From: Candidatus Nealsonbacteria bacterium
Lineage (GTDB): Bacteria > Patescibacteriota > Minisyncoccia > Minisyncoccales > GWA2-38-27
Assembly (NCBI GenBank): GCA_043819385.1
Contig: JBDREW010000023.1
Span: 1-49,959 of the forward strand
DNA length: 49,959 nucleotides
Direction: 5' to 3'
Shown: positions 5,702 through 36,570 of the stretch, in pieces
Position numbering within the stretch: position 1 is the stretch's first letter
How the letters are laid out: the number at the start of each line of letters is the position of its first letter
Position numbers and translations under genes: made by a program
Notes under the pieces: model-generated
The model's input: only the letters and a program-made list of their open reading frames with translations
What the model was told of the DNA's origin: nothing
The model's database searches: none

Positions 5702-5836
5702 TTTTTAAAATTCTTATTGTTTTTTGTTATTCTTATTATTTCTCGTTAAAACCCTTATTTTATACAATATACACTATATTTGTCCTAATATACACTATAT
5801 ACATAATATACATATATATGTATGTCCTACATAGAA

Positions 5837-5901
5837 TATAGAGGCAAGGCCTCTATACTGGTTTAAAACTTAGAATAGAATATAGAGGCCTTGCCTCTAT
5901 A
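5837..5901. repeat. Twin 9-bp-stem hairpins of the AGAATATAGAG..CTCTATACTG family
   Basis: TATAGAGGC-aag-GCCTCTATA (5837-5857) and TATAGAGGC-ctt-GCCTCTATA (5881-5901). The flanks are identical (AGAA..CTG) and the loops are complementary. A third family member lies inside comEC at 29468-29496. Confidence 0.8.
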
Positions 5902-5920
5902 CTGCTTTATTTATACTAAT

Positions 5921-18115: not shown

Positions 18116-18138
18116 TTTGCAGAGATTTTACCGAGAGC

Positions 18139-19082: not shown

Positions 19083-19097
19083 TATTATATAAAAAAA

Positions 19098-19140
19098 TAA
19101 AAAGCGGACTGAAAAATAATCAGACCGCTATTGTTTTTTT
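19098..19140 (-). terminator. Bidirectional terminator downstream of 19151..19438
   Basis: GCGGACTGA-aaaataa-TCAGACCGC, flanked by A runs on the left and T runs on the right. Confidence 0.65.
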
Positions 19141-19150
19141 ATTTTTTTAA

Positions 19151-19438: not shown

Positions 19439-19449
19439 TTTCTTACTCC

Positions 19450-19743
19450 TTATTCTGTTTCAAAAGGAAGAAATGACCTAGCTAAATCTCGTTTTGATGA
19501 TTCTCCAATCCTTTTAAAATTACTTTCTAAATTAATTTCAATAACACTTTTTACTCCAGAAAACTGACTAAAAATATTTATTGCTCCATCAGTAATTTGA
19601 GCACAACCTAGAAAAGCAACAAATATTAATCCATTTTCATCTATTAAAAAACAAAACCCTTCTCTTTTTAATTTTATTCTCAAATTTTCAATTTCTTGTT
19701 CTGTTCTTTCTTCATCCATTAAAATAACCATTCCATTCTTCAT
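19450..19743 (-). CDS. Small ferredoxin-like/ACT-like domain protein (97 aa)
   Basis: The pattern MVILMDEERTEQEIENLRIKLKREGF...GLIFVAFLG...FSGVKSVIEI resembles, from memory, the stand-alone beta-alpha-beta regulatory domain found at the N-terminus of some DAHP synthases. Weak call. Confidence 0.35.
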   Translation of the reverse strand: MKNGMVILMDEERTEQEIENLRIKLKREGFCFLIDENGLIFVAFLGCAQITDGAINIFSQFSGVKSVIEINLESNFKRIGESSKRDLARSFLPFETE

Positions 19744-19781
19744 TTTTCTTCCTTTTCCTATCTAATTGTTAAAGTACAACC

Positions 19782-19862
19782 CCATCACAACCAGTCCCGC
19801 CTTCTAAGCATATGAATTAACATTTAGCATAGAAGGCGGGATGATGTAAGGGCAAGAAAAAA
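19782..19862. repeat. ~80-bp hairpin-containing repeat, copy 1 (the partner is at 27212-27292, inverted)
   Basis: The 12-bp stem TCCCGCCTTCTA / TAGAAGGCGGGA (19795-19806 / 19830-19841) has a 23-nt loop. The flanks CCATCACAAC and GATGTAAGGGCAAGAAAAAA are also conserved. Confidence 0.85.
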
Positions 19863-19970
19863 CCTCTTCTTAAAAAGAGGTTGGTTTGAATAATCTTATT
19901 TTATATTTTTATTTTTTTATACTTTTGTTAACAAGACGAACCAAACCAACCTCTCTTCCAAAGAAGAGAT
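19861..19970. repeat. MITE-like unit with ~30-bp imperfect terminal inverted repeats around an AT-rich spacer
   Basis: The left arm is AACCTCTTCTTAAAAAGAGGTTGGTTTG. The reverse complement of the right arm reads ATCTCTTCTTTGGAAGAGAGGTTGGTTTGGTTCG. AGAGGTTGGTTTG / CAAACCAACCTCT pair over 13 bp. Confidence 0.5.
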
Positions 19971-20150
19971 AAAAAAAGAAAAACCATTTTTTAAATATAT
20001 TAGTTTGTTTCATAATTATATCTTTCTTTTTATCATTATTTAAAATACCTTGTCAAGAGAGACATTGATTTATACGGATATTAAAGGATCGTTGAGTTTA
20101 AACCAGTTTTTTAATTGCACAACTTCTAACTTTTTTATTCCAAATAATAT

Positions 20151-20387
20151 TCATTTTCTTAAAATTTTTAAAAATTCTTCTATTGTTATTCCAATATCTT
20201 CTTCAATAATCTTTTTTAAGAGTGATTTTTTAATGTCTTTTCCTTTATGAACAGGAACAACTGCTCTTTTTTGATTTAATGGATTATATAAAATAAGATG
20301 ACTACCACGAGAACGATCTTTTCTAAATCCTAATTTTAACAATACAAAAATAACATCTTTTGATTTTAAGCTAGGGAGTTTTTTCAT
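20151..20387 (-). CDS. hicA: HicA-family mRNA interferase toxin
   Basis: 78-aa ORF. LKSKDVIFVLLKLGFRKDRSRGSHLILYN matches the HicA/YcfA pattern (G-F....GSH). It lies immediately downstream of the hicB-like gene. Confidence 0.85.
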   Translation of the reverse strand: MKKLPSLKSKDVIFVLLKLGFRKDRSRGSHLILYNPLNQKRAVVPVHKGKDIKKSLLKKIIEEDIGITIEEFLKILRK

Positions 20388-20421
20388 AAAAATTAATCCA
20401 CTAACAAATAGAATAATATCG

Positions 20422-20667
20422 TTAAACTGTAACTTCTATTTTACCTTGAAGAATACGCATCTCTTCTGGTATTTTTTCTCTATGTTGGTCTAAACTTTCT
20501 AAATATAATTGAATTGCTTCTTTAATATTTTTCTCTGCTTCCTCTAAGGTATCCCCTTGAGTATGACAACCTGATAAACTTGGCACAAAAGCAATGTATC
20601 CGCCACCAAAAACTGCTTGATAAATTACAGTATATGAAAATATTTTTTTCTTAATTTCTTGAATCAT
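20422..20667 (-). CDS. hicB: HicB-family antitoxin (UPF0150 fold)
   Basis: 81-aa ORF. GGGYIAFVPSLSGCHTQGDTLEEAEKNIKEAIQLYLESL is the typical HicB N-domain signature. Confidence 0.85.
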   Translation of the reverse strand: MIQEIKKKIFSYTVIYQAVFGGGYIAFVPSLSGCHTQGDTLEEAEKNIKEAIQLYLESLDQHREKIPEEMRILQGKIEVTV

Positions 20668-20840
20668 ATTAAAATATTAATTTAACTAATTATAATATAT
20701 CACAATTTTAAATTGATGTATATGAATATATTGAACTTTTGGGTAAGGTATTAAAAAATGTATTTAATACATACATTTACTTCTTTCTCCTCCACTATAA
20801 AATGTATGCTTTTTACATTATTTGCGAAATTAATACCTAT

Positions 20841-22133
20841 TTATTCTTTTCTTTCTCCTAATTCAACTTCAACATTTTTTTCTTCTCCATCTCTTAAATA
20901 TTTTAAATTGACTTTATCATTTGGTCCATATTTTGAAATAAGTTTTGCTAAACTATTGTCTTGATTAATTTTTTCTCCTCCAAACTCTAAAATTACATCC
21001 ATTTCTTTTAATCCAGCTTTTTGAGCAGAAGAATCAGGCCAAATAGCTGATTTTCCTTTATCTCCAATAACTAAAGCTCCATAGTCCACTGATAAATCAT
21101 ATTCTTCTTGAACTGATTCATTAACTAAAACATAAGTAACACCTAAAAAAGGATATACAATTTTCCCAATTGTTTTAATTTGCTCAATATCTCTTTTTGC
21201 TTTATTTATTAAAATAGCAAAACCAATACTTTGAGCATCTTGAACCATTGCAGTATTTATTCCAATTACTTCCCCTTCCAAATTTACTAAAGGACCTCCT
21301 GAATTTCCTCTATTTATTGCTGCATCTGTTTGAATAGCACTTTCTAATGTTTCTATAAATCCCTCACCCCCAGAAGCTGTAATAGTTCTACCCAATCCAG
21401 AAATAACTCCAACTGAAACAGTATTATTAAACTCTCCTAAAGCATTTCCAATAGTAATTACTGTTTGACCAATTTGAAGATTATCTGAATCCCCTAATTT
21501 AGCAAATGGAAATGACTCTAAAATTAACTCACCATTTTCGTTTTCTATTTTTTCTTGTTCAATTTTAATAATAGCTAAATCTTCAACAGGATCTTTATCT
21601 AAAACTTTTGCTGTAAATTTTCTACCATCATTCATATAGACCGTATATTCAGCAGTATCTTCTAAAACAACATGTTTATTAGTTAAAATTATTCCATCCT
21701 CAGAAATAATAAATCCTGTTCCACTCCCAACTTCTTTTTTCTCTGTCCCATTTTGACGATATTGTGGAATCATATATCCAAAAGGACTTGGTCCAAATTC
21801 CTGAAAAGGATTATAATAATATTGTTCAAAAATTGGTACATCTTTAGAAATAACAATACTTACAACAGCAGGAGAAACATCTTTTATTGCTTTTATTGTT
21901 TTCTCTTCTTGATTTATTTGAGAAATATATTTTTGCTCTTGGTCAGAAAGATTTTGAGATAATCTATCGTTTAAATATGTTTTAAATTGAAAATAGAATG
22001 AAACACTTATTATACTTCCTGCTAAAAATCCAAAAACAGAAGAAATAATAATTATTGTCAAAATGTTTTTCTTATTATTATCAATAAAATTATTTTTTTT
22101 ATTATTAGATTGAATATTATTATTTAAATCCAT
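20841..22133 (-). CDS. htrA: HtrA/DegP-family serine protease with a C-terminal PDZ domain
   Basis: 430-aa ORF. TM anchor and catalytic motifs TNKHVV, DLAIIKIE and GNSGGPLVN. PDZ-like C-terminus (GLKEMDVILEFGGEKI). Confidence 0.9.
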   Translation of the reverse strand: MDLNNNIQSNNKKNNFIDNNKKNILTIIIISSVFGFLAGSIISVSFYFQFKTYLNDRLSQNLSDQEQKYISQINQEEKTIKAIKDVSPAVVSIVISKDVPIFEQYYYNPFQEFGPSPFGYMIPQYRQNGTEKKEVGSGTGFIISEDGIILTNKHVVLEDTAEYTVYMNDGRKFTAKVLDKDPVEDLAIIKIEQEKIENENGELILESFPFAKLGDSDNLQIGQTVITIGNALGEFNNTVSVGVISGLGRTITASGGEGFIETLESAIQTDAAINRGNSGGPLVNLEGEVIGINTAMVQDAQSIGFAILINKAKRDIEQIKTIGKIVYPFLGVTYVLVNESVQEEYDLSVDYGALVIGDKGKSAIWPDSSAQKAGLKEMDVILEFGGEKINQDNSLAKLISKYGPNDKVNLKYLRDGEEKNVEVELGERKE

Positions 22134-25908: not shown

Positions 25909-27211
25909 TTGATATTATCTTTTCAATATTATAAACGCCCTTTTTTTCTATTTTGATAAATCCTTCCATCGCTGCTTCGGCAAATCTTCCACCATTTATA
26001 CAATCAAAAAGCCATTGATCAACATAATTCGGATTGCCTTGTGCTATTCCTGACCCAACTCTTAAAAGCCATTTTCTATTTAAATCTTCTTGCGAACCGA
26101 TTGATGGAGCAATCATAATAGGCACACCTAATCCAGAATAAAAAGAAAGTTCACTTGGTTTTGTCCATAAAATATCTGTTTTTCGAAGTTTTTGATTAAA
26201 TTTATCAAAATATTTATAAATATCTTTGTCATATAATATTTCAATATTTTTATCTAAAACTGGTTTTAAACCAAGATGTTGAATTTCTTCCCAAAAATAA
26301 TCTCTTACTTTTTCTCTAATTCCTGCTGATAAAATTATTTTTATTTCTCCCTTTTTAATTCTTTCAGATAAATTTTTAACAAATCTAATTGCCATTTCTT
26401 TTTGTGCTCCAGCTCCTCCAATAGAAAATAATATTGTCAAAGGATGATCTGCCACTTTTGGTAATGGCCCTAAATTTATTTCAATCAATTTATTATATTT
26501 TTTACTATATTCTTTTTTAGGATCTAAATTGAAAAGACGATATCTTAAATCATTTTTTAAAATTTCCATTTCTTCTGTTCCAATGTTTTCTATTGGTAAT
26601 GGAAAACCAGTTAAAAAAATGTTTTTTGGTTTTACCCCATAAAGCTTTAATCTATCTCTTGTCCAAGAATTAGGAGCAAAATACTTAATTCTACTTTTCT
26701 TCGGATATAATGGGGCCCAAGCCCTAGCGATGTCAGCATCACAAATAACACAATAAATATCTCTGGGATAATCAAAAATTTCTGCCATAAAAGCTGATGT
26801 AAAAAATGTCGTTATAAACGGCACTTTCTTTTTTTTAAGTTTTTCAATCAAATGCTTGCCCCATTCTTTTTTGATAATAATAGAAAACATTTTCCTAAGA
26901 AGAAGACTTGACTTTGATAGATCTCTCCTTGGATAAAAATTAGGAATTTCTTGAATTTTATTGTAAAGATAAAAAATAAAATCACCTATAAAAGGAATTT
27001 TCTTAAATCTGGAAATAAATTCGTAAAAATTTCTGCTTGATTTCCAAATTTTCTTATCTTTTTCAGGAATTCCTTTATAGCTATTAGCATTTATAATCTT
27101 ATTGTCAAAAGCAACTTTTTTTAATGGATAAGCGGTTCTTTGATGACCATAACCCATATTAACTGCAACAACCCATGCTTTATTGTTTTTAATTGTATTT
27201 TTTTCTTCCAT
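25895..27211 (-). CDS. GT-B glycosyltransferase (GT28/MGDG-synthase-like)
   Basis: 438-aa ORF. N-terminal VAVNMGYGHQRTAYPL and the C-terminal half FSIGGAGAQKE...PSELSFYSGLGVPI resemble MurG/MGDG-synthase-type enzymes. It overlaps the nagZ-like gene by 14 nt. Confidence 0.6.
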   Translation of the reverse strand: MEEKNTIKNNKAWVVAVNMGYGHQRTAYPLKKVAFDNKIINANSYKGIPEKDKKIWKSSRNFYEFISRFKKIPFIGDFIFYLYNKIQEIPNFYPRRDLSKSSLLLRKMFSIIIKKEWGKHLIEKLKKKKVPFITTFFTSAFMAEIFDYPRDIYCVICDADIARAWAPLYPKKSRIKYFAPNSWTRDRLKLYGVKPKNIFLTGFPLPIENIGTEEMEILKNDLRYRLFNLDPKKEYSKKYNKLIEINLGPLPKVADHPLTILFSIGGAGAQKEMAIRFVKNLSERIKKGEIKIILSAGIREKVRDYFWEEIQHLGLKPVLDKNIEILYDKDIYKYFDKFNQKLRKTDILWTKPSELSFYSGLGVPIMIAPSIGSQEDLNRKWLLRVGSGIAQGNPNYVDQWLFDCINGGRFAEAAMEGFIKIEKKGVYNIEKIISNETY

Positions 27212-27292
27212 TTTTTCTTGTCCTTACATTATCCCGCCTTCTATGCTAAATGTTAATTCATACGCTTAGAAGGCGGGACTAGTTGTGATGGA
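27212..27292. repeat. ~80-bp hairpin-containing repeat, copy 2, abutting the start codon of the GT28-like gene
   Basis: Stem TCCCGCCTTCTA (27232-27243) / TAGAAGGCGGGA (27267-27278). The reverse complement matches 19782-19862 at about 90% by eye. Confidence 0.85.
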
Positions 27293-27322
27293 TTAATTTT
27301 CAAATTTTTAATTTTTCTATTT

Positions 27323-27343
27323 CTCTCCCGAGACCCGACCTCT
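27323..27343. repeat. Half copy (5' arm only) of the GC-rich palindromic repeat
   Basis: CTCTCCCGAGACCCGACCTCT without the 3' arm. Confidence 0.7.
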
Positions 27344-27424
27344 ATTATTAAAACTCATAAATTAAAACTCATAACTTTTTAAAATCTAAATTTCCCTAGC
27401 TTTCTCTTTTCTTCTCCCTCCCCC

Positions 27425-27476
27425 GAGCCCCGACCCCTAAAAAACTTCCTCTCCCTCTCGAGAGAGGTCAGGGCTC
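27425..27476. repeat. GC-rich palindromic intergenic repeat (family copy)
   Basis: GAGCCCCGACCCCT-aaaaaacttcctctccctctcg-AGAGAGGTCAGGGCTC. Confidence 0.85.
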
Positions 27477-27593
27477 TTTCCAGCTTTCACTCTTACTTTT
27501 TTTTAATTTTTTAAGTTTTTAAGTTTTTATTATTATATTTTAACCTTTTCAAAACCAAAATACAAGAAAAAAATGTTGAAAAGTTATAATAAT

Positions 27594-27622
27594 TTGACAT
27601 TATTTTAAAATTAAATTATTAT
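27594..27622 (+). promoter_or_regulatory. Sigma-70-type promoter TTGACA-17-TATTAT for the plus-strand RNA array
   Basis: TTGACA at 27594-27599 and TATTAT at 27617-27622. Confidence 0.55.
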
Positions 27623-27629
27623 TAAAAAT

Positions 27630-27745
27630 AGTTCTCTTCCCTGAAAGCAAGATAAGGGCTTGAAAAACAACAGAGAAATTAGCCCATCGGAAAAGCTTAC
27701 TAATGCTGTAAGAAAAACACCAGTCCCTTATCTTGCTTTTTATCC
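27630..27745 (+). ncRNA. Candidate small RNA M1 (12-bp closing helix, ~66-nt interior, U-tail)
   Basis: GCAAGATAAGGG (27648-27659) pairs perfectly with CCCTTATCTTGC (27726-27737), followed by TTTTTAT. There is an internal hairpin CTTAC-taatgct-GTAAG. No ORF. Confidence 0.4.
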
Positions 27746-27794
27746 TTATTGCGAAATATTTTTCGCAAAAAATTATAGTTCTTTCTATCTATAA

Positions 27795-27840
27795 AAGCTC
27801 TTGACAGAAACCTTCCCAGGTGCTCTCGTTTAGAGCTTTT
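27795..27840 (+). ncRNA. Module M2, a hairpin enclosing CTCTTGACA and CCCAGGTGCT, paralogous to 45683-45803
   Basis: AAAGCTCT (27795-27802) pairs with AGAGCTTT (27833-27840), then TTT. It shares the blocks AAAAGCTCTTGACA, CCCAGGTGCT and AGAGCTTTTTG with the rpsG-fusA spacer. Confidence 0.35.
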
Positions 27841-27842
27841 TG

Positions 27843-27933
27843 GGGGCTTAAGGTATGTCTGCATGAACGCTTATGCCAAAAGCTAACTCACGCAAGACAA
27901 AGGTATAACATCCCTTCCTTAAGTCCCCTTTTA
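27843..27933 (+). ncRNA. Candidate small RNA M3 (12-bp closing helix plus U-tail)
   Basis: GGGGGCTTAAGG (27843-27854) pairs with CCTTAAGTCCCC (27918-27929) with one mismatch, followed by TTTT. The interior is about 63 nt and has GTCTGC / GCAAGAC pairing. Confidence 0.4.
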
Positions 27934-27946
27934 AAAAAGTAGCAAG

Positions 27947-28037
27947 GGGGAAAGAGAGTTTTAAGAGAAAAAAATCGTAACTCTTTTTAGAGAACTTGTA
28001 GTTCTCAAACTCTTTAATTCTCTCTTTCCCTTTTTTC
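27947..28037 (+). ncRNA. Candidate small RNA M4 (11-bp closing helix plus U-tail)
   Basis: GGGAAAGAGAG (27949-27959) pairs with CTCTCTTTCCC (28021-28031), followed by TTTTTT. There is an internal hairpin GAGAAC-ttgta-GTTCTC. Confidence 0.4.
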
Positions 28038-28123
28038 TATAATTCTCATTTCCTTTAATATTTATAGTTCTTTATTTCTATCAAAAGACCTTGTAAAATA
28101 CTTGATCTTTTTTCTTTCAGATA

Positions 28124-28153
28124 TTGACAAATTATAGTTTATTGTGGTATAAT
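28124..28153 (+). promoter_or_regulatory. Strong promoter with extended -10 (TTGACA-18-TGGTATAAT), cassette 2
   Basis: TTGACA at 28124-28129 and TATAAT at 28148-28153. TGGTATAATATgGAtAGTAAATTA is nearly identical to 14905-14928. Confidence 0.7.
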
Positions 28154-28200
28154 ATGGATAGTAAATTAGCCCTTTCACTTCACTTTTGAGGAGATATGTA

Positions 28201-28461
28201 ATGACTACCAAAGAGTTTGCTTTCTTCGTCGCCGATTTGTGTATAGGCATAAAAAACTCTGCGCAATTCGAAGGAGGTTGTATTCGTTGTTGCAGTCAAA
28301 ATCCATTGTCCTTCGCCGAGATGGTTGCTAATCATCTTGATGATGAGAAACTCTATGATCTTACCCAAAAATTAGGTGGTGGAGATTTCCATCGCCTATG
28401 CCCTACGCCGAGAGAGTTTCTCACTGCCCTGTCGGAGGTTGTTTCTCCACTTGAGCCGTGA
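28201..28461 (+). CDS. Small (86 aa) acidic protein, opposite-strand cassette 2
   Basis: The ATG at 28201 is preceded by GAGGAG 7 nt upstream. The track ORF starts at a TTG at 28186. My hand count gives about 45% G+C. No homology recognised (contains CIGIK...GGCIRCC). Confidence 0.45.
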   Translation: MTTKEFAFFVADLCIGIKNSAQFEGGCIRCCSQNPLSFAEMVANHLDDEKLYDLTQKLGGGDFHRLCPTPREFLTALSEVVSPLEP

Positions 28462-28481
28462 ATTCTATCCATCTATTCTCC

Positions 28482-28514
28482 AAAACCCTGCGATACAATA
28501 TCAAGGGGTTTTTT
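28482..28514 (+). terminator. Conserved terminator, cassette 2
   Basis: AAAACCCTGCGATACAATATCAAGGGGTTTTTT. It ends 4 nt before the convergent comEC stop codon. Confidence 0.7.
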
Positions 28515-28517
28515 CTT

Positions 28518-30119
28518 TTAATAATTTAAAAATTTTAATTTTTGTTTTTTATTTAAATAATAAACTAATAAAGTTAAAATTAAATAATAAACTACAATCC
28601 AAAACCAATTAAAATTATCAATTGACTTTACTGCCCAATTTTTAGAGAAAAAATCTGTTATTTTCAATAAATAAAAAAGTAAAAACCAAACAGGAATAGA
28701 AAATATTAATCCTAAAAAACTCCAAATCATTCCGAGAAAAACAAAAATAAATCCAAAAATCATAATTAAAGGAACAATCGGCAAAATCAAGATATTAGTT
28801 AAAGGAGAAACTAATGAGACCTGCCCAAAATTATAAATTAAAATAGGAAAAGTAAAAATATATGCAGAAAATGTCATTATTAAGATATTATTGATATTAA
28901 TAATTATTTTATTTTTTCTTAAAAAATTTGGATATAGTTTTTGAAATAAATTTTTTAAAATAGGTCCAAAATTAATTATTCCAATTACAGCTAAAAAAGA
29001 AAGTTGAAATCCAACATCTCCCAACAAAAGTAAAGGATTAAAAAATAACATTACTGATCCAACAATTACTATTGTTCTTGAACTAATTGATTTTCTGCCT
29101 ACTTTTTGAGCCAAAAGAAAAAGCATACCCATTATTCCAGCTCTAATAGCTGAAACTTGCAAGCCAGTCATAACCACAAAAAGAAAAATAAGTATCACTG
29201 AAAAATAAAATGCTTGCCCGCGCCAAAATCCTAAACCAATCAACAAAGACATTAAAATACTTGATAAAATCACGATATGCATTCCAGAAACAGCCGTAAT
29301 ATGACGAATACCAGCAATATTTAATTTTTCTTTCATTTCTTGAGGAATTCTATTTTTATCACCTAAAATCATAGCTCCTAAAATAAATGCTTGTGAATAT
29401 TCAAGATTTTGATAAATATTCTTTCTTAATACTTCCTTAAACCCCAAAACCCTCCTATAAAACCTAGAGAATATAGAGACCCGATCTCTATACTGGCTAT
29501 TTTGGGTTTTAATTTCTGGATAATAAATTACTGAATATATTCCTGTTTTAGACAAATAATCCTTATAATTAAAATCATCAAAAATAATAGGAGTTTGTAA
29601 CTTTCCTTTAACTTTTAATCTATCTCCATGTTTATATTTCGGATATTTTCCAACAGTAATTAAAACTTTTTCTTTTTCAAAATTATTATACTCTAAAACA
29701 TCATATTCATTGCAAGATTCATTGCTAGGCCCGTCCTCGCAAACTTGCGAGGACGGGCCTAGCAATGTTTTTAAGCTCTCAACTCTAATAGTTAATTTTT
29801 GATTATTTTCTCTAATATCTGGTTCATCAATAATTATACCTGTTAAAATAACATCTCTTTCTAAATCATTATATTTCTCTAATTGATTATTTTTAATTTT
29901 TAATTCTGCTTTTTGATGTTGAAAAACTCCAAAATTTAAAAAAATTAAGCAAAAACTAAAAATAACTATTTTTTTAAATTTCCAGAAACCAATGATTAAA
30001 ATTATACTTGAAAATAAAATCAGTAATATTAAAAAATAAGGAATTACAAAAATAGAACTTAAAAAAATGCCTATTATAAAAAAGAGGCAAAAAATAAAAA
30101 AAATTCTTGACTTTGTCAT
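28518..30119 (-). CDS. comEC: ComEC/Rec2-family DNA internalisation channel (no metallo-beta-lactamase domain)
   Basis: 533-aa polytopic ORF. The N-terminal TM pair plus soluble OB-like segment and the Competence domain (AGIRHITAVSGMHI) are conserved. Confidence 0.85.
   Translation of the reverse strand: MTKSRIFFIFCLFFIIGIFLSSIFVIPYFLILLILFSSIILIIGFWKFKKIVIFSFCLIFLNFGVFQHQKAELKIKNNQLEKYNDLERDVILTGIIIDEPDIRENNQKLTIRVESLKTLLGPSSQVCEDGPSNESCNEYDVLEYNNFEKEKVLITVGKYPKYKHGDRLKVKGKLQTPIIFDDFNYKDYLSKTGIYSVIYYPEIKTQNSQYRDRVSIFSRFYRRVLGFKEVLRKNIYQNLEYSQAFILGAMILGDKNRIPQEMKEKLNIAGIRHITAVSGMHIVILSSILMSLLIGLGFWRGQAFYFSVILIFLFVVMTGLQVSAIRAGIMGMLFLLAQKVGRKSISSRTIVIVGSVMLFFNPLLLLGDVGFQLSFLAVIGIINFGPILKNLFQKLYPNFLRKNKIIININNILIMTFSAYIFTFPILIYNFGQVSLVSPLTNILILPIVPLIMIFGFIFVFLGMIWSFLGLIFSIPVWFLLFYLLKITDFFSKNWAVKSIDNFNWFWIVVYYLILTLLVYYLNKKQKLKFLNY
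29468..29496. repeat. AGAATATAGAG..CTCTATACTGG hairpin repeat located in frame inside comEC
   Basis: Stem TATAGAGA (29472-29479) / TCTCTATA (29485-29492). It shares its flanks with the 5837 and 5881 copies and encodes QYRDRVSIF. Confidence 0.8.
29720..29767. repeat. GC-rich 48-bp palindrome (23-bp perfect arms) in frame inside comEC
   Basis: CATTGCTAGGCCCGTCCTCGCAA-ac-TTGCGAGGACGGGCCTAGCAATG. It encodes LLGPSSQVCEDGPSN. Confidence 0.9.
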
Positions 30120-32109: not shown

Positions 32110-35100
32110 TTAATTTTTTAAAACAAATTCTTTTCGTTCTTTGAATTCTTGCTTTTTACCAATATGCCATTGACCAACAGGACGTATGTATCCAACTATC
32201 CTTGAATAAACCTCACATGGCTGTTCAATAGCACATTTAGGACAATTAAAATGCTCACCTGACAAATACCCATGAGCAGGGCATATTGAAAATGTTGGAG
32301 TTAAAGTAATATACGGCAAATGATAATTTTCAAATACTTTTTTAACTAATGCTTTAGCCATTTGAGGATCATTTATTTTTTCCCCTAAAAACAAGTGGAG
32401 AACCGTACCACCACTATATTTACACTGAATATCGTCTTGAAGATCCAATGCTTTAAAAACATCATCAGTAAAACCAACCGGTAACTGAGACGAATTTGTA
32501 TAATAAGGGAATTCTTTTGTTCCAGCTGTAATAATATCTGGATATTTATCTTGATCAGCTTTTGCCTGCCTATAACTTGTTCCCTCTCCAGGGGTTGCTT
32601 CAAGATTATATAAATTACCAGTTTCTTCTTGATATTTTATTAATCTATCTCTCATAAATTCCAAAACTTCAATTGCAAACTTCTTTCCTTTTGGAGTTGT
32701 AGTTTGTTCTCCTAAAAAGTTTAAAAGTGCTTCATTCATTCCCATTAAACCAATTGTTGAAAAATGATTTCCAATATATGAACCTCTCATTTTTTTAACT
32801 GACTCTAAATAATATCTTGAATATGGATACAAACCCTTTTCCATAAAGTTGTCTAACGCCTTTCTTTTAATTTCTAAACTTTCTTTTGCTAAATCCATCA
32901 AACGTTCTAATCTGTCAAAAAATTCTTGTTTAGTTTTTGAGAGATAACCAATCCGAGGTAAATTTATTGTCACTACACCAATTGAGCCAGTCAAAGGTTG
33001 TGATCCAAAAAGTCCTCCTCCTCTCATGTATAATTCTTTATTGCTCAATCTCAATCTGCAACAATTAAAAGAAATCTGACCCAAAGAATGCAAAAATAAA
33101 TGATTTTTATTTAATTCTAAATCATAAAATTCTTTTAGTTTTTTAGAAATTTTCTTTTTAATTGACTTAACTCTAAGAATATAAATATCGCTATTCTTTA
33201 TTTTCAAACTTTCATTAGTATGAGCATTATATTTATCTATAGTATCAAAACCAATTGTTCGTGATTTTGAAAAACCAGGAATTTTTCTTCCATTTGTCAC
33301 AAAAGCAGGTGTTCTTTCTGAAATAATCGGATTATTAAGCCATCCATTATTTTCTTTTATTTTTGATTTGGCGTGTTGTATATAAATTCTCTGGCTATTT
33401 TTTCTTAATTTATAAGTAACTGGTTGTCCAATTAAAGAATAAAGCAAAACTAAATCCCTTGATAGCTCTAAATCATTTATATGAATTTCTTTTCTTTTAT
33501 CATAACCATCGCCCTTAAAATGAAATTCTAAAAAACTTTTAATAACTGATACTGGAGAATTAAATAAAATTTGGGGTTGTCTTCCATACTTTTTAAAACC
33601 GCTATTATATAATTTCCTTGATAGTTTTGTATTGTAAATATAAAGATAATAAGTATTATAACGAGGATCTTGTTTTTCTTTTCCCTCTAATCCAAAAACT
33701 TTTTTTATTAAAGATTTAACTAATTCTAAATTTTCAAAATCTCCTGTCCTAAAAGTAAATTGAAGACCTCTTGGTTCTCCATAATGAGTATAACCTTTTC
33801 TATTTTCAAAAAGATAATTTCCGTCAGCAACAAAATATCCTAAAATCTTTGCTAAATCTTCATTTAAAATAATATCATCATCTAATTCTTGATAAGTTTT
33901 TGACAAACTATTTTGAGCATTTTTGATAGAAAGAAGATAATCTCCTTTTTCAATATCCTTTGACCATTTCATTATAATTCCTTTTTCTGTAAAAACAGGA
34001 ATCGGATGTTTTGCTGAAAAAGTTGCTATTTTTCCATCTTCAGTAGTAATCTCTATTGTTTTTCTGTCAAAAACTCTTAAAAATCTTTTTACTGATGACC
34101 ATTCTGTTTTAAAAGTTTTAGGATTTAATGACAAAACTTCTAAACCTCCCTCTTTTTTACAATTTGTCCAGCCATACCTATCAAATTCTTTTGATTTATA
34201 CTTTTCAGCTACCTCTTTAATTGATAATCTTTTAATATTTTTAGAATTTCTAATTAAAACTTCTTCGTTTTTATCTAAACACATTGAACGAAAATCATCT
34301 GGATCCATATCTGATTTTACAAAATTTTGAAAATAATTAACTCCATATTTTGCAGTTGCTTCCCATAATGGCTCTAAATATGGATTATTCCAATCAAAAT
34401 CTTTTGTAATAGAAACTGTTGGGATAGGAAAAGTAAAAGGTCTTCCTTTTGCATCTCCTTCCATCAAAACCTCATAAAATACTTTATTAAAAATATTCAT
34501 TTCTTCCTGAAATTCATTATATGTTTCTTTCTGAGTTTTTCCTCCGATAATTACTGGCTGTTTACCTAAAGATGTAGGGGGTTTAATGTCTATGGTTGTA
34601 TTAAGGAAAGGAGTTTGAAAGCCGACCCTAGTCGGTACCATACAATTAAATAAAAATTCTTGCATTGCTTGTTTTACCTGAGCATAATTCAAATTATCGT
34701 ATCTAATATATGGAGCTAAAAGAGTATCAAAATTTGAAACAGCCTGAGCCCCTGCTGAATTTCCACACCAAGTAGCTTTACCTTTTCGTCTTACATAAAG
34801 AGTATGATTCGGCACCTCTAAACAATAAACTTTATCATTATATGCTATTTTTTTAATATTATCTTCTTCATTTTTAAATCTAAAATGCTTTGCTCTTGAA
34901 ATGCCAATATCAAACCAATGAAATTTTTCCTTTGTTCTTTTATAGATATTAGCACTCCATCCTAATTTTAAAACTATTTCCTGAACATCATCAGCTAATC
35001 TTTTACTTTTAGTAGAATATTCAATATTTCCATTACCTATGTATCCATCGCCTTTCATCATCCAATTAAATAAAATCTTTAATTGATTTTTAGACAAATT

Positions 35101-36570
35101 TTTAATTTCTTCTGGAATAAATTTATCTCCTGCTTTGCCAAATTGTTTTAAATATAGATATAATTGTTTATTGCTAATGTAAAATTCTAATTGTTTGCCT
35201 TGATCTTTTTTATTGTAATTAAAAGGTAATCTTTTTAAAATTTGTTCAAATTCATCTGCTGTTTTACCTTTATTCTGAGATATTCTTACTGCATATTCAT
35301 AATATGGATTTTTCCAACCCTCTCTATTCCTCTCTCTTAAATAAGTACATCCTTCAGCCACCCAAAAACCAAAAAAAGCTAACCAATCATTCATTTTTAT
35401 TTTCTTAGCTTTTATTTTTACATTTTCATAAACACTGTATCTACATTGTTTAATTCCAATCTCTGGCAATAGAAAACTTTCTTGTTTAACTGGAACCAAT
35501 TCATCAGCTGGAGATAATTCAAAAATACTTTCCAAAGAAGAAATAAATTGAATTTCCTGTTCTTCTCCTTGCCAAATTTTACTACCCTTAGGGATAAAAT
35601 GTTCGCTCACCTTGAAATCCTTAGCTTTAATAAATTTTCTTTTGTATAACCCCTCTTTACAGCGAGGACAATATTGATCAACCACCATATTATGATTTGG
35701 GGTTACCAATAAATCTAATTTCTTAGATTTAAAATTGTAAAGTTCGCCATTATAATTAAATTCATAAAAGTTACTTGGCTTTTGCAATTCAATCTCATCT
35801 GTTTCATTATTTAAAGTAAAAATCTCATCATCTTTTCTGACACTATAAAAATATTTCCATCCCTGTTTTGTTAAAACTTGAGTATCCTTACTATAACATT
35901 CACCTTGAACAGTATAAAAGAAATTTACTAATTGCCCTAAAGCAGTTCTGAAATGTTTTGCTGGTTTACATTCTAATTTTCCAGAAACACCTCCAAAACC
36001 ACGCTTTAATAAATCATAAAGATCCCAACCCATACAATAACAAGCTAAAATATCTAAATCATGAATATGAAAATCTTCGTTAGCGCCTGCTTCTCTCACT
36101 TCTTTAGGATAAATTTTATTCAACCAATATTTCTTAGAAATATGTGAAATTGTATGTTGATTTAATCCTTGTAAAGAAAAAGTCATATTAGCATTTTCAT
36201 ATATCTGCCAATCAAGTTCTTTCAAATAGCTATCTATTTTTTGGCTTGATTCGTCTAAAATTGAACCTGTTTCCCTTATTCTTCTTCTTTGCTCTCTATA
36301 TAAAATATATGATTTAGCTGTTTCAACTAAATCTTCTAAAATTAAAACCTCTTCAACAATATCTTGAATCTGCTCTACTTCAGGAATTTCATCTGTTTTA
36401 AATCTTCTGTTTATAAATAAAACTACTTTTTCAGTTGCTTTTTTTGTTTTTTCACCATCCCCTTCTCCAGCCGCTGTGATTGCTTTAAAAATAGCATCTG
36501 AAATTCTTTTTTCATCAAAAACTGTTAATTCTCCATTTCTTTTTTTAATTTTAGTAATATGATTTTCCAT
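32110..36570 (-). CDS. nrdD: Anaerobic (class III) ribonucleoside-triphosphate reductase interrupted by two inteins
   Basis: 1486-aa ORF. N-terminal ATP-cone (ITKIKKRNGELTVFDEKRISDAIFKAI), conserved GAQAVSNFDT and CCRLRL motifs, a C-terminal Zn-ribbon (CPAHG...CPKC) and the glycyl-radical motif SRIVGYIRP. The exteins sum to about 700 aa. Confidence 0.95.
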   Translation of the reverse strand: MENHITKIKKRNGELTVFDEKRISDAIFKAITAAGEGDGEKTKKATEKVVLFINRRFKTDEIPEVEQIQDIVEEVLILEDLVETAKSYILYREQRRRIRETGSILDESSQKIDSYLKELDWQIYENANMTFSLQGLNQHTISHISKKYWLNKIYPKEVREAGANEDFHIHDLDILACYCMGWDLYDLLKRGFGGVSGKLECKPAKHFRTALGQLVNFFYTVQGECYSKDTQVLTKQGWKYFYSVRKDDEIFTLNNETDEIELQKPSNFYEFNYNGELYNFKSKKLDLLVTPNHNMVVDQYCPRCKEGLYKRKFIKAKDFKVSEHFIPKGSKIWQGEEQEIQFISSLESIFELSPADELVPVKQESFLLPEIGIKQCRYSVYENVKIKAKKIKMNDWLAFFGFWVAEGCTYLRERNREGWKNPYYEYAVRISQNKGKTADEFEQILKRLPFNYNKKDQGKQLEFYISNKQLYLYLKQFGKAGDKFIPEEIKNLSKNQLKILFNWMMKGDGYIGNGNIEYSTKSKRLADDVQEIVLKLGWSANIYKRTKEKFHWFDIGISRAKHFRFKNEEDNIKKIAYNDKVYCLEVPNHTLYVRRKGKATWCGNSAGAQAVSNFDTLLAPYIRYDNLNYAQVKQAMQEFLFNCMVPTRVGFQTPFLNTTIDIKPPTSLGKQPVIIGGKTQKETYNEFQEEMNIFNKVFYEVLMEGDAKGRPFTFPIPTVSITKDFDWNNPYLEPLWEATAKYGVNYFQNFVKSDMDPDDFRSMCLDKNEEVLIRNSKNIKRLSIKEVAEKYKSKEFDRYGWTNCKKEGGLEVLSLNPKTFKTEWSSVKRFLRVFDRKTIEITTEDGKIATFSAKHPIPVFTEKGIIMKWSKDIEKGDYLLSIKNAQNSLSKTYQELDDDIILNEDLAKILGYFVADGNYLFENRKGYTHYGEPRGLQFTFRTGDFENLELVKSLIKKVFGLEGKEKQDPRYNTYYLYIYNTKLSRKLYNSGFKKYGRQPQILFNSPVSVIKSFLEFHFKGDGYDKRKEIHINDLELSRDLVLLYSLIGQPVTYKLRKNSQRIYIQHAKSKIKENNGWLNNPIISERTPAFVTNGRKIPGFSKSRTIGFDTIDKYNAHTNESLKIKNSDIYILRVKSIKKKISKKLKEFYDLELNKNHLFLHSLGQISFNCCRLRLSNKELYMRGGGLFGSQPLTGSIGVVTINLPRIGYLSKTKQEFFDRLERLMDLAKESLEIKRKALDNFMEKGLYPYSRYYLESVKKMRGSYIGNHFSTIGLMGMNEALLNFLGEQTTTPKGKKFAIEVLEFMRDRLIKYQEETGNLYNLEATPGEGTSYRQAKADQDKYPDIITAGTKEFPYYTNSSQLPVGFTDDVFKALDLQDDIQCKYSGGTVLHLFLGEKINDPQMAKALVKKVFENYHLPYITLTPTFSICPAHGYLSGEHFNCPKCAIEQPCEVYSRIVGYIRPVGQWHIGKKQEFKERKEFVLKN
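33064..34281 (-). mobile_element. Intein 2 (406 aa) with a LAGLIDADG homing endonuclease, inserted before the CCRL motif
   Basis: It starts FRSM|CLDKNEEVLI and ends FYDLELNKNHLFLHSLGQISFN|CCRL. LAGLIDADG motifs are ILGYFVADGNY and FLEFHFKGDGY. Coordinates were derived by residue counting (aa 764-1169) and checked against codons. Confidence 0.85.
34759..35898 (-). mobile_element. Intein 1 (380 aa) with a LAGLIDADG homing endonuclease
   Basis: It starts VQGE|CYSKDTQVLT and ends VYCLEVPNHTLYVRRKGKATWCGN|SAGAQA. LAGLIDADG motifs are LAFFGFWVAEGC and LFNWMMKGDGY. It spans aa 225-604, and the codons TGT at 35896-35898 and AAT at 34759-34761 were verified. Confidence 0.85.

What the first reader, a model, noticed from the sequence alone, without database searches (positions are those of the whole stretch)
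29468..29767. Two palindromic repeat elements sit in frame inside comEC (RPE-like coding insertions)
Within the soluble N-terminal segment of ComEC there is a 48-bp palindrome with perfect 23-bp arms (29720-29767). It is far more GC-rich than the rest of the gene and translates to LLGPSSQVCEDGPSN. About 230 bp away is a hairpin of the AGAATATAGAG..CTCTATACTGG family (29468-29496). That family is otherwise seen only in intergenic DNA at 5837-5901, and this copy translates to QYRDRVSIF. Both preserve the reading frame of the 533-aa ORF. Palindromic mobile elements that insert in frame into protein genes are known from the Rickettsia palindromic elements. Finding this in a CPR-like comEC suggests the same process operates here, or that DNA- or RNA-level structures are tolerated or used inside this gene.
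Basis: partly seen in the sequence, partly recalled or inferred. Interest (0 to 1): 0.65.

Follow-up and report, generated by a model that had tools for sequence, protein, structure and literature searches.

The report
Hairpin repeat elements translated inside comEC
The DNA-uptake gene comEC of this ultra-small (CPR/Patescibacteria) bacterium carries, in frame, one single and one double copy of a small hairpin-forming repeat. Related copies sit inside many other essential genes of related bacteria, so this is a new example of "selfish" palindromic DNA that ends up translated into protein loops.

Summary
Both features are real. Window 29720-29767 is a perfect 48-bp palindrome with 60% GC, inside a comEC gene of 24% GC. 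It encodes LLGPSSQVCEDGPSN in a low-confidence loop of the OB domain. All 29 aligned orthologues lack it, including the sister protein.

Window 29468-29496 is an exact third copy of a hairpin otherwise found only between genes, at 5833-5905. It lies in the linker between the OB and membrane domains.

Both belong to one superfamily of units: an 8-bp stem ending in GAG(G/A), a 5-nt loop (CCCGT/ACGGG/TCGGG), then (C/T)CTC. The 48-bp palindrome is an inverted dimer of such a unit.

The core AGGCCCGTCCTCG…CGAGGACGGGCCT recurs in low-GC contigs, three of them named Saccharibacteria or Nealsonbacteria. There it lies in frame inside ThrRS, TsaD, DprA, a ComF-like protein, PheT, enolase and others. Other ComEC orthologues carry units at the same two sites, with compensatory stem changes.

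The best reading is a REP/REPIN- or RPE-like palindromic repeat family that persists, translated, in permissive loops. This is a new member of a known kind. I found no transposase, no empty-site polymorphism and no reads spanning the palindrome.

The parts
28518..30119 (-). comEC ORF, 533 aa: N-terminal transmembrane helices, OB/DUF4131 domain, and Competence membrane domain. There is no beta-lactamase-like domain. This is the host gene of both elements.
   Evidence: ORF. Pfam PF13567 at 27-204 (1.5e-20) and PF03772 at 250-524 (4.7e-53). NCBIfam ComEC models. 3481 homologues, with named ones from Parcubacteria, Nealsonbacteria and Minisyncoccales. Solved ComEC structures match (30bt, 9vc6).
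29720..29767 (.). 48-bp perfect palindrome, an inverted homodimer of a 23-nt hairpin unit. On the coding strand it reads TTGCTAGG-CCCGT-CCTCGCAA / GT / TTGCGAGG-ACGGG-CCTAGCAA. It is translated as residues about 118-133, LLGPSSQVCEDGPSN ('site 1').
   Evidence: -46 kcal/mol, z = -12. Absent from 29 orthologues. Lies in a pLDDT<50 coil at 120-140 between strands 106-119 and 141-144. Covariance-model hits at 29720-29744 and 29743-29767, E about 6e-4; these two units were among the sequences the model was built from, so this is not independent.
29720..29742 (.). Left arm of the palindrome (first unit).
   Evidence: pair I4.
29745..29767 (.). Right arm of the palindrome (second unit, inverted).
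   Evidence: pair I4.
29703..29726 (.). 12-bp tandem direct repeat, ATATTCATTGCA / AGATTCATTGCT (10 of 12 identical; peptides CNEY / SNES). It overlaps the outer 7 nt of the left arm. This suggests the outermost arm bases are native flank mirrored onto the other arm.
Evidence: Read directly from the sequence.
29468..29496 (.). Single hairpin unit with conserved flanks: AGAA-TATAGAGA-CCCGA-TCTCTATA-CTGG (8-bp stem, 5-nt loop). Translated as QYRDRVSIF, residues about 208-216, in the linker between the OB and membrane domains ('site 2').
   Evidence: Best covariance-model hit in the window, 29.5 bits, E 6e-6; this unit was part of the model's seed alignment, so it matches by construction. In the AF2 model it is a short helix at 208-213 with pLDDT about 71-76.
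5833..5861 (.). Intergenic copy A of the same unit: AGAA-TATAGAGG-CAAGG-CCTCTATA-CTGG.
5877..5905 (.). Intergenic copy B, with the same stem and flanks and the loop inverted (CCTTG). Together with copy A it forms an inverted dimer with a 19-23-nt spacer.
   Evidence: (pair I7). The region 5825-5910 folds at -40.7 kcal/mol, z = -7.3.

Best explanation
Both features are copies of a REP/REPIN-like family of small hairpin repeats, and both are translated as part of ComEC.

The unit is about 21-25 nt. It has an 8-bp stem whose loop-proximal half is GAG(G/A)…(C/T)CTC, a 5-nt loop (CCCGT/ACGGG/TCGGG/CCCGA), and a variable distal stem. Units occur singly or as inverted dimers that fold into one long hairpin.

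- At site 1, a turn between two OB-fold strands, this genome carries a perfect inverted dimer: the 48-bp palindrome.
- At site 2, the linker between the OB and membrane domains, it carries a monomer. Its stem and flanks are identical to this genome's own intergenic dimer at 5833-5905.

The elements persist inside the gene for three reasons. They sit in structurally permissive loops or linkers. The GC-rich 13-nt core has no stop codon in any of the six frames. Selection keeps only copies whose length and frame leave the ORF open; in the window palindrome the frame in use is the only open one.

Steps shown here:
- family membership and the shared core across named Saccharibacteria and Nealsonbacteria genomes and other low-GC contigs;
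- in-frame location in many conserved genes;
- recurrence at the same two ComEC sites;
- compensatory stem changes.

Steps inferred:
- Spread is by a trans-acting enzyme that recognises single-stranded hairpins (HUH/Y1, RAYT- or IS200/IS605-type), or by recombination between copies.
- Perfect symmetry, and growth of the palindrome into the flanks, arise in place by quasipalindrome template switching or arm-to-arm conversion.
- The encoded peptides are neutral passengers.
For: 1. Anatomy. The palindrome is a dimer of TTGC(T/G)AGG-CCCGT/ACGGG-CCT(C/A)GCAA. The window holds 8 units of the form GAGR-N5-YCTC with a stem of at least 6 bp, against 0.05 expected.

2. Family, genome scan. A scan of 185,579 species genomes for the inner 11+11 nt gave 105 loci. 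102 come from loci of at least 52% GC with unrelated flanks. The 3 low-GC hits are CPR (Saccharibacteria twice, Nealsonbacteria once). All three share the extra flank (G)AG, extend as palindromes, and lie in frame in TsaD, DprA and ThrRS.

3. Family, metagenome scan. The 13+13-nt core gave 23 loci, 21 of them at 34-48% GC. These include 4 copies on one 121-kb contig and 1 on a sister contig.

4. Host genes. Pfam confirms in-frame hosts: enolase, DUF72, TsaD, a ComF-like PRTase, ThrRS (two lineages), PheT, an FAD oxidoreductase and DprA. All three reading frames of the core are used.

5. Site 1 in ComEC orthologues. Units are present in P0011 (GGGTAGAGG-ACGGG-CCTCTACCC), P0058, P0005 (decayed) and P0020. 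They are absent in P0002, P0003, P0024 and P0120. The carriers are scattered on the tree.

6. Site 2 in ComEC orthologues. Units are present in 8 of the 10 genes for which I held DNA, including a full -50.7 kcal/mol dimer in P0020. The same 19-nt unit, ACAGAGGTCGGGCCTCTGT, is at site 1 in P0058 and at site 2 in P0017.

7. Covariation over 16 units. 93% of cells are paired against 71% in shuffles. There are 28 double-change cells against 9.2. The covariation score is 0.597 against 0.187. None of 500 shuffles reached these values.

8. Structure. Site 1 is a coil with pLDDT below 50 between strands.

9. In-place symmetrisation. In three TsaD genes of 67-70% protein identity and 42-43% third-position identity, the palindrome is at the same codon position. 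The flanking codons at matching positions differ between genes but are mirror images within each gene.

10. Precedent. Intragenic REPs and REP dimers encoding 20-30 aa are documented, including Rickettsia RPE-4 and RPE-6 (PMC3733652).
Against: - No transposase of any kind appears among the 31 of 38 window ORFs of at least 100 aa that I scanned. The rest of the genome is not available.
- No empty-site polymorphism was found. Members of clusters at 90% identity or above, for six unit-bearing ComEC/TsaD proteins, all keep their elements. Recent mobility is therefore not demonstrated.
- The exact 48-bp palindrome has only one copy in the 50-kb window. It was not found in the species-genome collection.
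- There are no target-site duplications and no conserved GTAG or CGTC tag.
- Persistence at orthologous sites with compensatory changes could equally reflect selection on a nucleic-acid structure.
- The units in the covariation set were partly chosen because they are hairpins, and the collection scans demanded a perfect core. Both introduce ascertainment bias.
- No sequencing reads spanning the palindrome were available.
Confidence: 0.7

Rival explanations
1. The hairpins are selected nucleic-acid signals rather than selfish passengers. They could be mRNA structures that pause translation at domain boundaries, RNase processing or stabilising sites, or DNA-level signals such as an uptake or recombination signal in these naturally competent bacteria. 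Selection would then maintain them at fixed positions in comEC and other genes.
For: - Units occupy the same two ComEC positions in many orthologues, and stem pairing is kept through compensatory changes.
- The 26-nt core is identical in TsaD genes whose third codon positions are saturated.
- The elements are fixed within strain clusters of 96-100% identity.
- The sites are domain linkers: between OB and membrane domains in ComEC, between N and C domains in enolase, and between the DprA domain and its winged helix.
- Three of the host genes are competence genes: comEC, dprA and a comF-like gene.
Against: - The same core occurs in unrelated genes, in all three frames and both orientations, and between genes.
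- Many orthologues lack the unit at either site, and decayed copies exist.
- At the TsaD site the alternative occupant is a heptanucleotide tandem repeat. This points to a permissive, repeat-prone loop rather than a specific signal.
- Density of the GC-rich core (5 copies on about 170 kb) is far below that of known uptake sequences, about 1 per kb from my own knowledge.
- Core conservation is inflated because the scans required exact cores.
Confidence: 0.13
2. The palindrome arose locally, with no mobile family involved. A replication template switch or snap-back repair event would have produced an inverted duplication of pre-existing comEC sequence.
For: - The arms are perfect, 23 of 23, with a 2-nt centre. 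This is the signature of quasipalindrome template switching (Ripley 1982; Dutra & Lovett 2006; my own knowledge).
- The outermost arm bases overlap a native-looking 12-bp tandem duplication (sequence).
- Flanks are mirror-symmetric in the TsaD genes.
Against: - The inner 13+13 nt are shared exactly with elements in other genes and other CPR classes. A purely local origin cannot explain that.
- The arm is 60% GC in a gene of 24% GC, and no orthologue has a homologous single arm in the sister lineage.
- Template switching is best seen as a contributing step that perfects and extends the palindrome, not as its origin.
Confidence: 0.08
3. The inserted peptides are selected at the protein level, as a functional loop in the OB domain. 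The DNA palindromy would then be incidental.
For: The ORF is intact and the loop is surface-exposed. Gly/Pro/Ser/Arg-rich loops can be functional.
Against: - The same DNA core is translated in three different frames in different hosts: EARPR/RGRAS, RPVL/EDGP and GPSS/RTGL.
- Most orthologues lack the segment.
- A perfect 23-bp symmetry is not explained by selection on a peptide.
Confidence: 0.03
4. The palindrome is an assembly or amplification artefact.
For: Only one assembly holds this window. No public DNA run with matching reads was found. The only identical RNA contig (29489-29680) stops short of the palindrome.
Against: - The palindrome is internal to the contig, exactly 48 bp, and in the only open frame, with the gene continuing on both sides.
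- Palindromes of the same family were assembled independently in many samples, with identical copies in different data sets: L037/L112/L130, L111/L118 and L121/L123.
- P0024 was recovered from both JGI and Logan assemblies.
Confidence: 0.02

Closest known systems
REP elements and REPINs (inverted REP doublets), including the intragenic REPs and REP dimers of Opitutus terrae, Thauera and Rickettsia conorii (Di Nocera et al. 2013, PMC3733652; Bertels & Rainey 2011, from my own knowledge)
   Same: - Short hairpin units with an 8-9-bp stem and 4-5-nt loop, as in the CGTC class.
- Frequent inverted homodimers that can fold into one long hairpin.
- Several sub-families in one genome.
- Copies both between and inside genes. 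Intragenic dimers encode about 15-30 aa, often in DNA-metabolism genes.
- The CGTC class has no dedicated transposase nearby.
   Different: - There is no conserved unpaired GTAG or CGTC tag and no CCA tail. GTAG is adjacent in only some copies.
- The conserved part is the loop plus the loop-proximal stem.
- The core is shared across CPR classes, whereas REP families are usually specific to a species or genus.
- A high share of the sampled copies is intragenic (12 of 16 classifiable low-GC loci).
- Units persist at orthologous sites.
- RAYT association was not tested at genome scale.
Rickettsia palindromic elements (RPE; Ogata et al. 2000, from my own knowledge; RPE-4 and RPE-6 are CGTC REPs according to PMC3733652)
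   Same: Palindromic repeats inserted in frame into functional housekeeping genes of a reduced, AT-rich, host-dependent bacterium. They are translated and located in surface loops.
   Different: - The classic RPE-1 is about 100-150 bp, against 48 and 29 bp here.
- The lineage is different (Alphaproteobacteria), and there is no known sequence relationship.
- The present elements are GC-rich islands in AT-rich genes.
Organellar mobile hairpins: yeast mitochondrial GC clusters, Allomyces double-hairpin elements (both from my own knowledge), and the coding palindromes in Nematomorpha mitochondrial genes (PMC6649704; abstract as listed)
   Same: GC-rich or perfect hairpin or double-hairpin elements in AT-rich compact genomes. 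They also sit, translated, inside protein-coding genes.
   Different: - These are organellar, not bacterial.
- The Nematomorpha palindromes are much longer (up to 284 bp) and are not a dispersed family with a common core.
Bacterial MITEs (Correia/NEMIS, RUP, ERIC; review PMC10969869)
   Same: Small non-autonomous repeats that can land in frame in genes.
   Different: MITEs are 70-300 bp, with terminal inverted repeats around a non-palindromic interior and with target-site duplications. None of this is seen here.
DNA uptake sequences (DUS/USS) of Neisseria and Pasteurellaceae (from my own knowledge)
   Same: Short conserved motifs that often occur as inverted pairs, are tolerated in coding regions and are enriched in genome-maintenance genes. 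The bacteria are naturally competent.
   Different: Uptake sequences occur about once per kb and are 9-12 nt long. The GC-rich core here is roughly 30 times rarer. No functional evidence exists.

Membership tests
ComEC/Rec2 (host gene) | Competence (PF03772) membrane domain preceded by the DUF4131/OB domain | tested here: met
   PF03772 at 250-524 with E 4.7e-53, and PF13567 at 27-204 with E 1.5e-20. TIGR00360 scored 83.5 bits against a cut-off of 36.5. Solved ComEC chains match.
REP / REPIN | The unit is a short (20-40 bp) imperfect palindrome forming a stem-loop | tested here: met
   Units of 21-25 nt with an 8-bp stem and 5-nt loop. 93% of stem cells are paired across 16 units.
REP / REPIN | Units frequently paired in inverted orientation, forming a larger hairpin (REPIN or head-to-head dimer) | tested here: met
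   The window palindrome at 29720-29767 and the intergenic dimer at 5833-5905. Also the dimers in P0020 and P0120 and in loci L111-L133.
REP / REPIN | Many dispersed copies within one genome | tested here: inconclusive
   Only 50 kb of this genome is held. It has 3 copies of the TATAGAG sub-family, 2 units of the GC-rich sub-family, and 13 units of a possibly related intergenic CCCGACC family. Two contigs of one metagenome hold 5 copies of the GC-rich core. A whole-genome census was not possible.
REP / REPIN | Conserved unpaired GTAG or CGTC tetranucleotide at one end (PMC3733652) | tested here: not met
   The window units are flanked by AGAA/CTGG, or have no conserved flank. GTAG adjoins the stem in only some copies (L111/L118, L128, L059, P0011, P0024, P0005). 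CGTC occurs only inside the loop-stem junction.
REP / REPIN | Predominantly extragenic location | tested here: not met
   12 of 16 distinct classifiable low-GC loci lie inside ORFs of at least 245 aa. 11 of those ORFs are confirmed as conserved genes, by Pfam or, for the L037/L112/L130 ORF, by alignment with the Pfam-confirmed TsaD genes. Intragenic REPs are a documented minority elsewhere.
REP / REPIN | Association with a RAYT (Y1 HUH) transposase gene in the genome | not testable with these tools
   No transposase domain in 31 of the 38 window ORFs of at least 100 aa. The remainder of the genome and of the related genomes is not held.
Rickettsia palindromic elements (RPE) | In-frame insertion in otherwise intact, conserved protein genes | tested here: met
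Rickettsia palindromic elements (RPE) | The inserted peptide lies on the protein surface or in a loop | tested here: met
   AF2 model with mean pLDDT 80.4. Residues 120-140 are coil, with 123-129 and 134-138 below pLDDT 50, between OB strands. The low confidence in the loop itself limits this test.
Rickettsia palindromic elements (RPE) | Membership of the described RPE sequence families (about 100-150 bp for RPE-1; Rickettsia lineage) | tested here: not met
   The lengths here are 48 and 29 bp, and the organism is CPR/Patescibacteria. I did not compare sequences with RPE consensus sequences, because none were held.
MITE | 70-300 bp, terminal inverted repeats around an unrelated interior, target-site duplication | tested here: not met
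   The whole element is the palindrome. No direct repeats flank it; the only nearby direct repeat is tandem and on one side.
DNA uptake sequence (DUS/USS) | Very high genomic density (about 1 per kb) of one short motif | tested here: not met
   There are 2 core copies in 50 kb of the window, and 5 on about 170 kb of contigs Ga0111214_104 and _105.
Known structured RNA families (Rfam 15) | A match at or near a family's gathering score | tested here: not met
   No hit at gathering score anywhere in the window. In E-value mode only generic hairpin (miRNA-precursor) matches appeared, far below threshold.

The most novel reading that the evidence does not exclude
CPR/Patescibacteria may maintain a hairpin element spanning several CPR classes (core GAGG-CCCGT/ACGGG-CCTC) inside essential and competence genes because the nucleic-acid structure itself is used. 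It could be a co-translational pause or RNA-processing signal at domain boundaries, or a DNA-level recognition signal linked to their obligate DNA uptake. Orthologous positions would then be conserved by selection, through compensatory evolution within coding sequence.
Probability: 0.12. Interest if true: 0.85.

Novelty: new member of a known kind. Interest (0 to 1): 0.55.

Why it matters
Small palindromic repeats translated inside genes are known from Rickettsia and a few other bacteria. Five full-text searches of the held library found no report of them in the Candidate Phyla Radiation.

Here the same GC-rich core turns up in frame in ThrRS, TsaD, PheT, enolase, DprA, a ComF-like protein and ComEC. 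The carriers are low-GC contigs, and the three with names are Saccharibacteria and Nealsonbacteria.

This matters in three ways.

1. It explains many of the lineage-specific 'insertions' that make CPR proteins longer and harder to align or model.
2. It gives a marker for tracing DNA exchange between ultra-small bacteria.
3. It offers a natural data set on how very stable hairpins (-46 to -51 kcal/mol) are tolerated within coding DNA and mRNA of minimal genomes.

If the hairpins proved to be functional rather than selfish, this would be a new layer of regulation in these organisms.

Tried and rejected
1. Read-level validation failed. No public DNA run holds this window; the best run shares 6% of words. 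The one identical RNA contig covers 29489-29680 only. Laying contigs at 80% likeness gave only fragments of distant relatives. These results are uninformative, not negative.

2. The viral contig collection gave 0 hits for the family core.

3. Rfam gave nothing meaningful, either at gathering score or in E-value mode, for the palindrome, the intergenic repeats and the ORF-poor regions.

4. The hairpin-2 pattern TATAGAG-N7-CTCTATA is absent from all 139 fetched loci. That exact sub-family looks genome-specific.

5. I looked for presence/absence polymorphism within protein clusters at 90% identity or above. None was found; length differences were alternative start calls.

6. A transposase search among the window ORFs found none.

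7. Filing under CGTC- or GTAG-tagged REPs was rejected, because the tag is not conserved.

8. The idea that the TsaD site is a conserved functional palindrome was weakened. Most CPR TsaD genes carry a heptanucleotide tandem repeat there instead.

9. The covariance model of the unit has little power at 25 positions. In the window it recovers significantly only the five units it was built from. The intergenic CCCGACC family scores only E 0.1-1, so its relationship to the comEC elements remains suggestive.
Full report
**1. The observation**

Window 29720-29767 reads CATTGCTAGGCCCGTCCTCGCAA-AC-TTGCGAGGACGGGCCTAGCAATG. Its arms are 23 nt, perfectly complementary, and 2 nt apart. The 18-nt arm core occurs nowhere else in the window, against 0.01 expected. 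GC is 0.60, against 0.24 for the gene and 0.24-0.33 for the window. As RNA it folds at -46 kcal/mol, z = -12.

It lies inside the 533-aa ORF 28518-30119 on the minus strand. That ORF is ComEC, with DUF4131/OB at 27-204 and Competence at 250-524. The palindrome encodes LLGPSSQVCEDGPSN. Read from the sequence, the two other frames on the coding strand each hit a TAG in the outer CTAG, so the frame in use is the only open one.

The second feature, AGAATATAGAG-N7-CTCTATACTGG at 29468-29496, is one of exactly three matches in the window. The others are intergenic, at 5833-5861 and 5877-5905, and shuffles give 0.00 expected. It encodes QYRDRVSIF. By itself it is a weak hairpin, -12.1 kcal/mol and z = -1.9. 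Both observations are confirmed.

**2. Organism and context**

The closest ComEC homologues are 63-68% identical. Those that carry a name come from Parcubacteria, Nealsonbacteria, Minisyncoccales or 'Patescibacteria group'. Gene order matches related contigs: NrdD, its radical-SAM activase, comEC, DUF6938, GH3 and so on. This is a low-GC CPR genome. None of the 31 ORFs scanned is a transposase.

**3. Is the palindrome an insertion?**

In an alignment of 30 orthologues, the 16 residues fall in a variable turn seven residues after the conserved KLTI strand. None of the other 29 proteins has them, including the sister protein P0002.

An AlphaFold2 model (mean pLDDT 80.4) places residues 120-140 in a coil between OB strands 106-119 and 141-144. 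Residues 123-129 and 134-138 have pLDDT below 50. The hairpin-2 peptide (208-216) is a short helix in the linker between the last OB strand and the first long helix of the membrane domain. That linker is only 2-6 residues longer than in orthologues.

**4. One unit, two arrangements**

Each arm of the 48-bp palindrome is itself a hairpin: TTGC(T/G)AGG-CCCGT/ACGGG-CCT(C/A)GCAA. Hairpin 2 is TATAGAGA-CCCGA-TCTCTATA, and its intergenic relatives are TATAGAGG-CAAGG/CCTTG-CCTCTATA. All have an 8-bp stem ending in GAG(G/A), a 5-nt loop, then (C/T)CTC.

The window holds 8 such units with a stem of at least 6 bp, against 0.05 expected. The palindrome is therefore an inverted homodimer, hairpin 2 a monomer, and 5833-5905 an inverted dimer with a spacer (-40.7 kcal/mol, z = -7.3).

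An abundant intergenic repeat also has a similar core, GAG(A/C)CCCGACCTCT, with 13 units. A covariance model of the unit scores these only at E 0.1-1, so that relationship is suggestive, not proven.

**5. The family outside the window**

A scan of one genome for each of 185,579 species, using GCCCGTCCTCG-N0-12-CGAGGACGGGC, returned 105 loci. Of these, 102 are loci of at least 52% GC with unrelated flanks, mostly above 60% GC. They look like chance or terminator hairpins.

The three low-GC hits are CPR: two Saccharibacteria and one Nealsonbacteria. All three share the additional flank and extend as long palindromes. All three lie in frame, in TsaD, DprA and ThrRS.

A metagenome scan with the 13+13-nt core returned 23 loci, 21 of them at 34-48% GC. 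These include four copies on one 121-kb contig and one on a sister contig. Pfam confirms the hosts: enolase (in the linker between N and C domains), DUF72, TsaD, a ComF-like PRTase, ThrRS, PheT (B5 region), an FAD oxidoreductase and DprA (in the linker between domains). One copy lies upstream of folD and four are in short ORFs or intergenic DNA.

All three frames of the core are used (EARPR/RGRAS, RPVL/EDGP, GPSS/RTGL), and the 13-nt core has no stop in any frame. Viral contigs gave nothing.

**6. ComEC orthologues carry units at the same two sites**

I obtained the DNA of nine orthologues.

- *Site 1.* P0011 has GGGTAGAGG-ACGGG-CCTCTACCC. P0058 has ACAGAGG-TCGGG-CCTCTGT. P0005 has a decayed CGAGA-CCCGT-CCTCG. 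P0020 has CAGGGCGAGG-TCGGG-CCTAGCCCTG. P0003, P0024 and P0120 have a short, unit-free turn, and the longer P0069 loop holds no family unit. The carriers are scattered on a neighbour-joining tree.
- *Site 2.* Eight of the ten genes, counting the window, carry a unit. P0020 has a full dimer (YRGPSSVTDRGRASV, -50.7 kcal/mol) and P0120 a dimer. P0017, P0024, P0005, P0069 and the window have monomers. The P0069 unit, TATCGAGG-TTTAA-CCTCGATA, encodes the YRGLTS motif common in this protein family. P0011 and P0058 have a short, unit-free linker.

The identical 19-nt unit ACAGAGGTCGGGCCTCTGT sits at site 1 in P0058 and at site 2 in P0017. Thirteen of the 120 listed ComEC homologues contain a family-type peptide motif, nearly all at one of the two sites.

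Over 16 units, 93% of stem cells pair, against 71% in shuffles. There are 28 double-change cells against 9.2, and no shuffle of 500 reaches the observed covariation. The caveat is that units were partly picked as hairpins.

**7. How the palindromes behave over time**

Three TsaD genes of 67-70% protein identity, with third-position identity of 0.42-0.43 (saturated), carry the palindrome at the same codon position and in the same frame. The outer, variable parts of their palindromes overlap flanking codons that differ between genes but are mirror images within each gene. This argues that the arms are symmetrised or extended in place.

In the window, the outer CATTGC of one arm belongs to a 12-bp tandem duplication of native-looking sequence, ATATTCATTGCA/AGATTCATTGCT. 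This is consistent with the same process.

Two ThrRS genes carry the element at the same site but with different lengths and different second-arm frames. That is more easily explained by separate events or turnover.

In 120 CPR TsaD homologues, this loop holds either remnants of the GC-rich element or a peptide repeat. The repeat is a heptanucleotide tandem array, (AAATTCG) or (AAATTAC) about 4.6 times. The loop is therefore simply permissive and repeat-prone.

Within clusters of 96-100% identity the elements are fixed, and no empty sites were found.

**8. Interpretation**

The best-supported reading is a REP/REPIN-like (functionally RPE-like) family of hairpin repeats. Its members reach intergenic DNA and genes alike, and survive in genes only in permissive loops or linkers and in an open frame.

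- *Shown:* the unit architecture, family membership, in-frame hosts, recurrent sites, compensatory stem changes and loop location.
- *Inferred:* mobilisation in trans by an enzyme that recognises hairpins (by analogy with RAYT and IS200/IS605 enzymes), perfection and extension by template switching, and neutrality of the peptide.

The main rival is selection on the structure itself. It is kept at about 0.13 because of the orthologous persistence and covariation. Against it stand the variety of hosts, frames and orientations, the many unit-free orthologues and the decayed copies. Purely local origin, protein-level selection and artefact are each unlikely.

**9. Comparison with the known**

Di Nocera et al. 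2013 (PMC3733652) describe REP super-families with 8-9-bp stems and 4-5-nt loops. Inverted dimers predominate, and there are intragenic units and dimers encoding 20-30 aa, many in replication and repair genes. Rickettsia RPE-4 and RPE-6 are among them.

The present elements work like these but fail the tag criterion: they have no conserved GTAG or CGTC. They are not RPEs by length or lineage, and they are not MITEs, having no TIR/TSD architecture. No Rfam family matches. Five full-text searches found nothing on such elements in CPR/Patescibacteria.

**10. Verdict**

Novelty: a new member of a known kind, namely REP/RPE-like translated palindromic repeats, here in the CPR and with a core shared across classes. 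Interest is moderate, at 0.55.

The main gaps are read-level confirmation, a whole-genome census, the mobilising enzyme, and proof of translation.

Noticed in passing
window 932, 18268, 18306, 22240, 24678, 24716, 27334, 27429, 31976, 32015, 42588, 42627, 43356 (start of each 7-nt core): Abundant GC-rich intergenic repeat with the core GAG(A/C)CCCGACCTCT. It often forms inverted pairs around CCTCTC-GA(A)G-AGAGG, followed by purine-rich GGGAGAGGAAG tracts just upstream of genes. All 13 units are intergenic. CCCGNCC occurs 15 times, against my rough estimate of about 0.75 by chance. It may be related to the comEC units.
   Followed up: partly
window 18130-18187 and 18857-18962 (within the ORF-poor stretch 18009-20841): A cluster of five hairpin units, (CT)TACGGAGAG-N3-5-CTCTCCGTA(AG), including a 52-bp near-perfect palindrome. 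The surrounding 2.8 kb holds only one ORF of at least 100 aa (18411-18761, no Pfam match). Rfam gave no match.
   Followed up: partly
window 7994-8033 and 43293-43332: Two 40-bp perfect palindromes with no spacer, both in intergenic DNA: TTATGACCAAAATCTCGCGA|TCGCGAGATTTTGGTCATAA and AAAAGAAACAGGTTTGATAT|ATATCAAACCTGTTTCTTTT. Their sequences are unrelated to the comEC elements.
   Followed up: no
window 8753-8787, inside ORF 8171-11878 (-): A further coding palindrome: 35 bp with perfect 17-bp arms, AT-rich. It is translated as FPQDFLEENLVE in an acidic region of a 1235-aa protein with PQQ-like beta-propeller and LTD domains.
   Followed up: partly
window 32110-36570 (-): The anaerobic ribonucleotide reductase NrdD is 1486 aa, about twice the usual length. 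It contains an intein splicing domain and a LAGLIDADG endonuclease domain.
   Followed up: no
window 27211-28518: A 1.3-kb stretch downstream of comEC has no ORF of at least 100 aa. It includes GC-rich segments (28381-28438) and two of the intergenic repeat units. Rfam gave no match. Orthologous loci hold small unannotated ORFs at this position.
   Followed up: partly
L138:1001-2062 and L139:1001-2086 (CPR TsaD genes): The TsaD loop between GGP and LPRPM is encoded by a heptanucleotide tandem repeat, (AAATTAC) about 4.7 times or (AAATTCG) about 4.6 times. This gives 7-aa peptide repeats such as KFEIRNSKFEI. The feature is common among 120 CPR TsaD homologues.
   Followed up: partly
L001:10091-10118 (ComEC P0024), and L004 gene positions 454-525, 583-642 and 1168-1251 (ComEC P0120): Other lineage-specific ComEC insertions are also hairpins of unrelated sequence. 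One is ACCCCCCACTTATATATAAGTGGGGGGT, in the N-terminal membrane region (TPHLYISGGL; the same insertion type occurs in several orthologues). Others are double hairpins encoding DPKSLRATGSPATEGGVG, and AATCCCGCC…GGCGGGATT in a membrane-domain loop.
   Followed up: partly
L131:472-496 (-), within TsaD: A second in-frame unit, TCTATAGAGG-TCCGA-CCCCTATAGA (IYRGRTSID), lies at a different position in a TsaD gene that also carries the palindrome.
   Followed up: no
window 45826-45899 (+): ARAGORN calls a tRNA-Leu (anticodon TAG), but the Rfam gathering-score scan of the whole window reported no tRNA hit.
   Followed up: no
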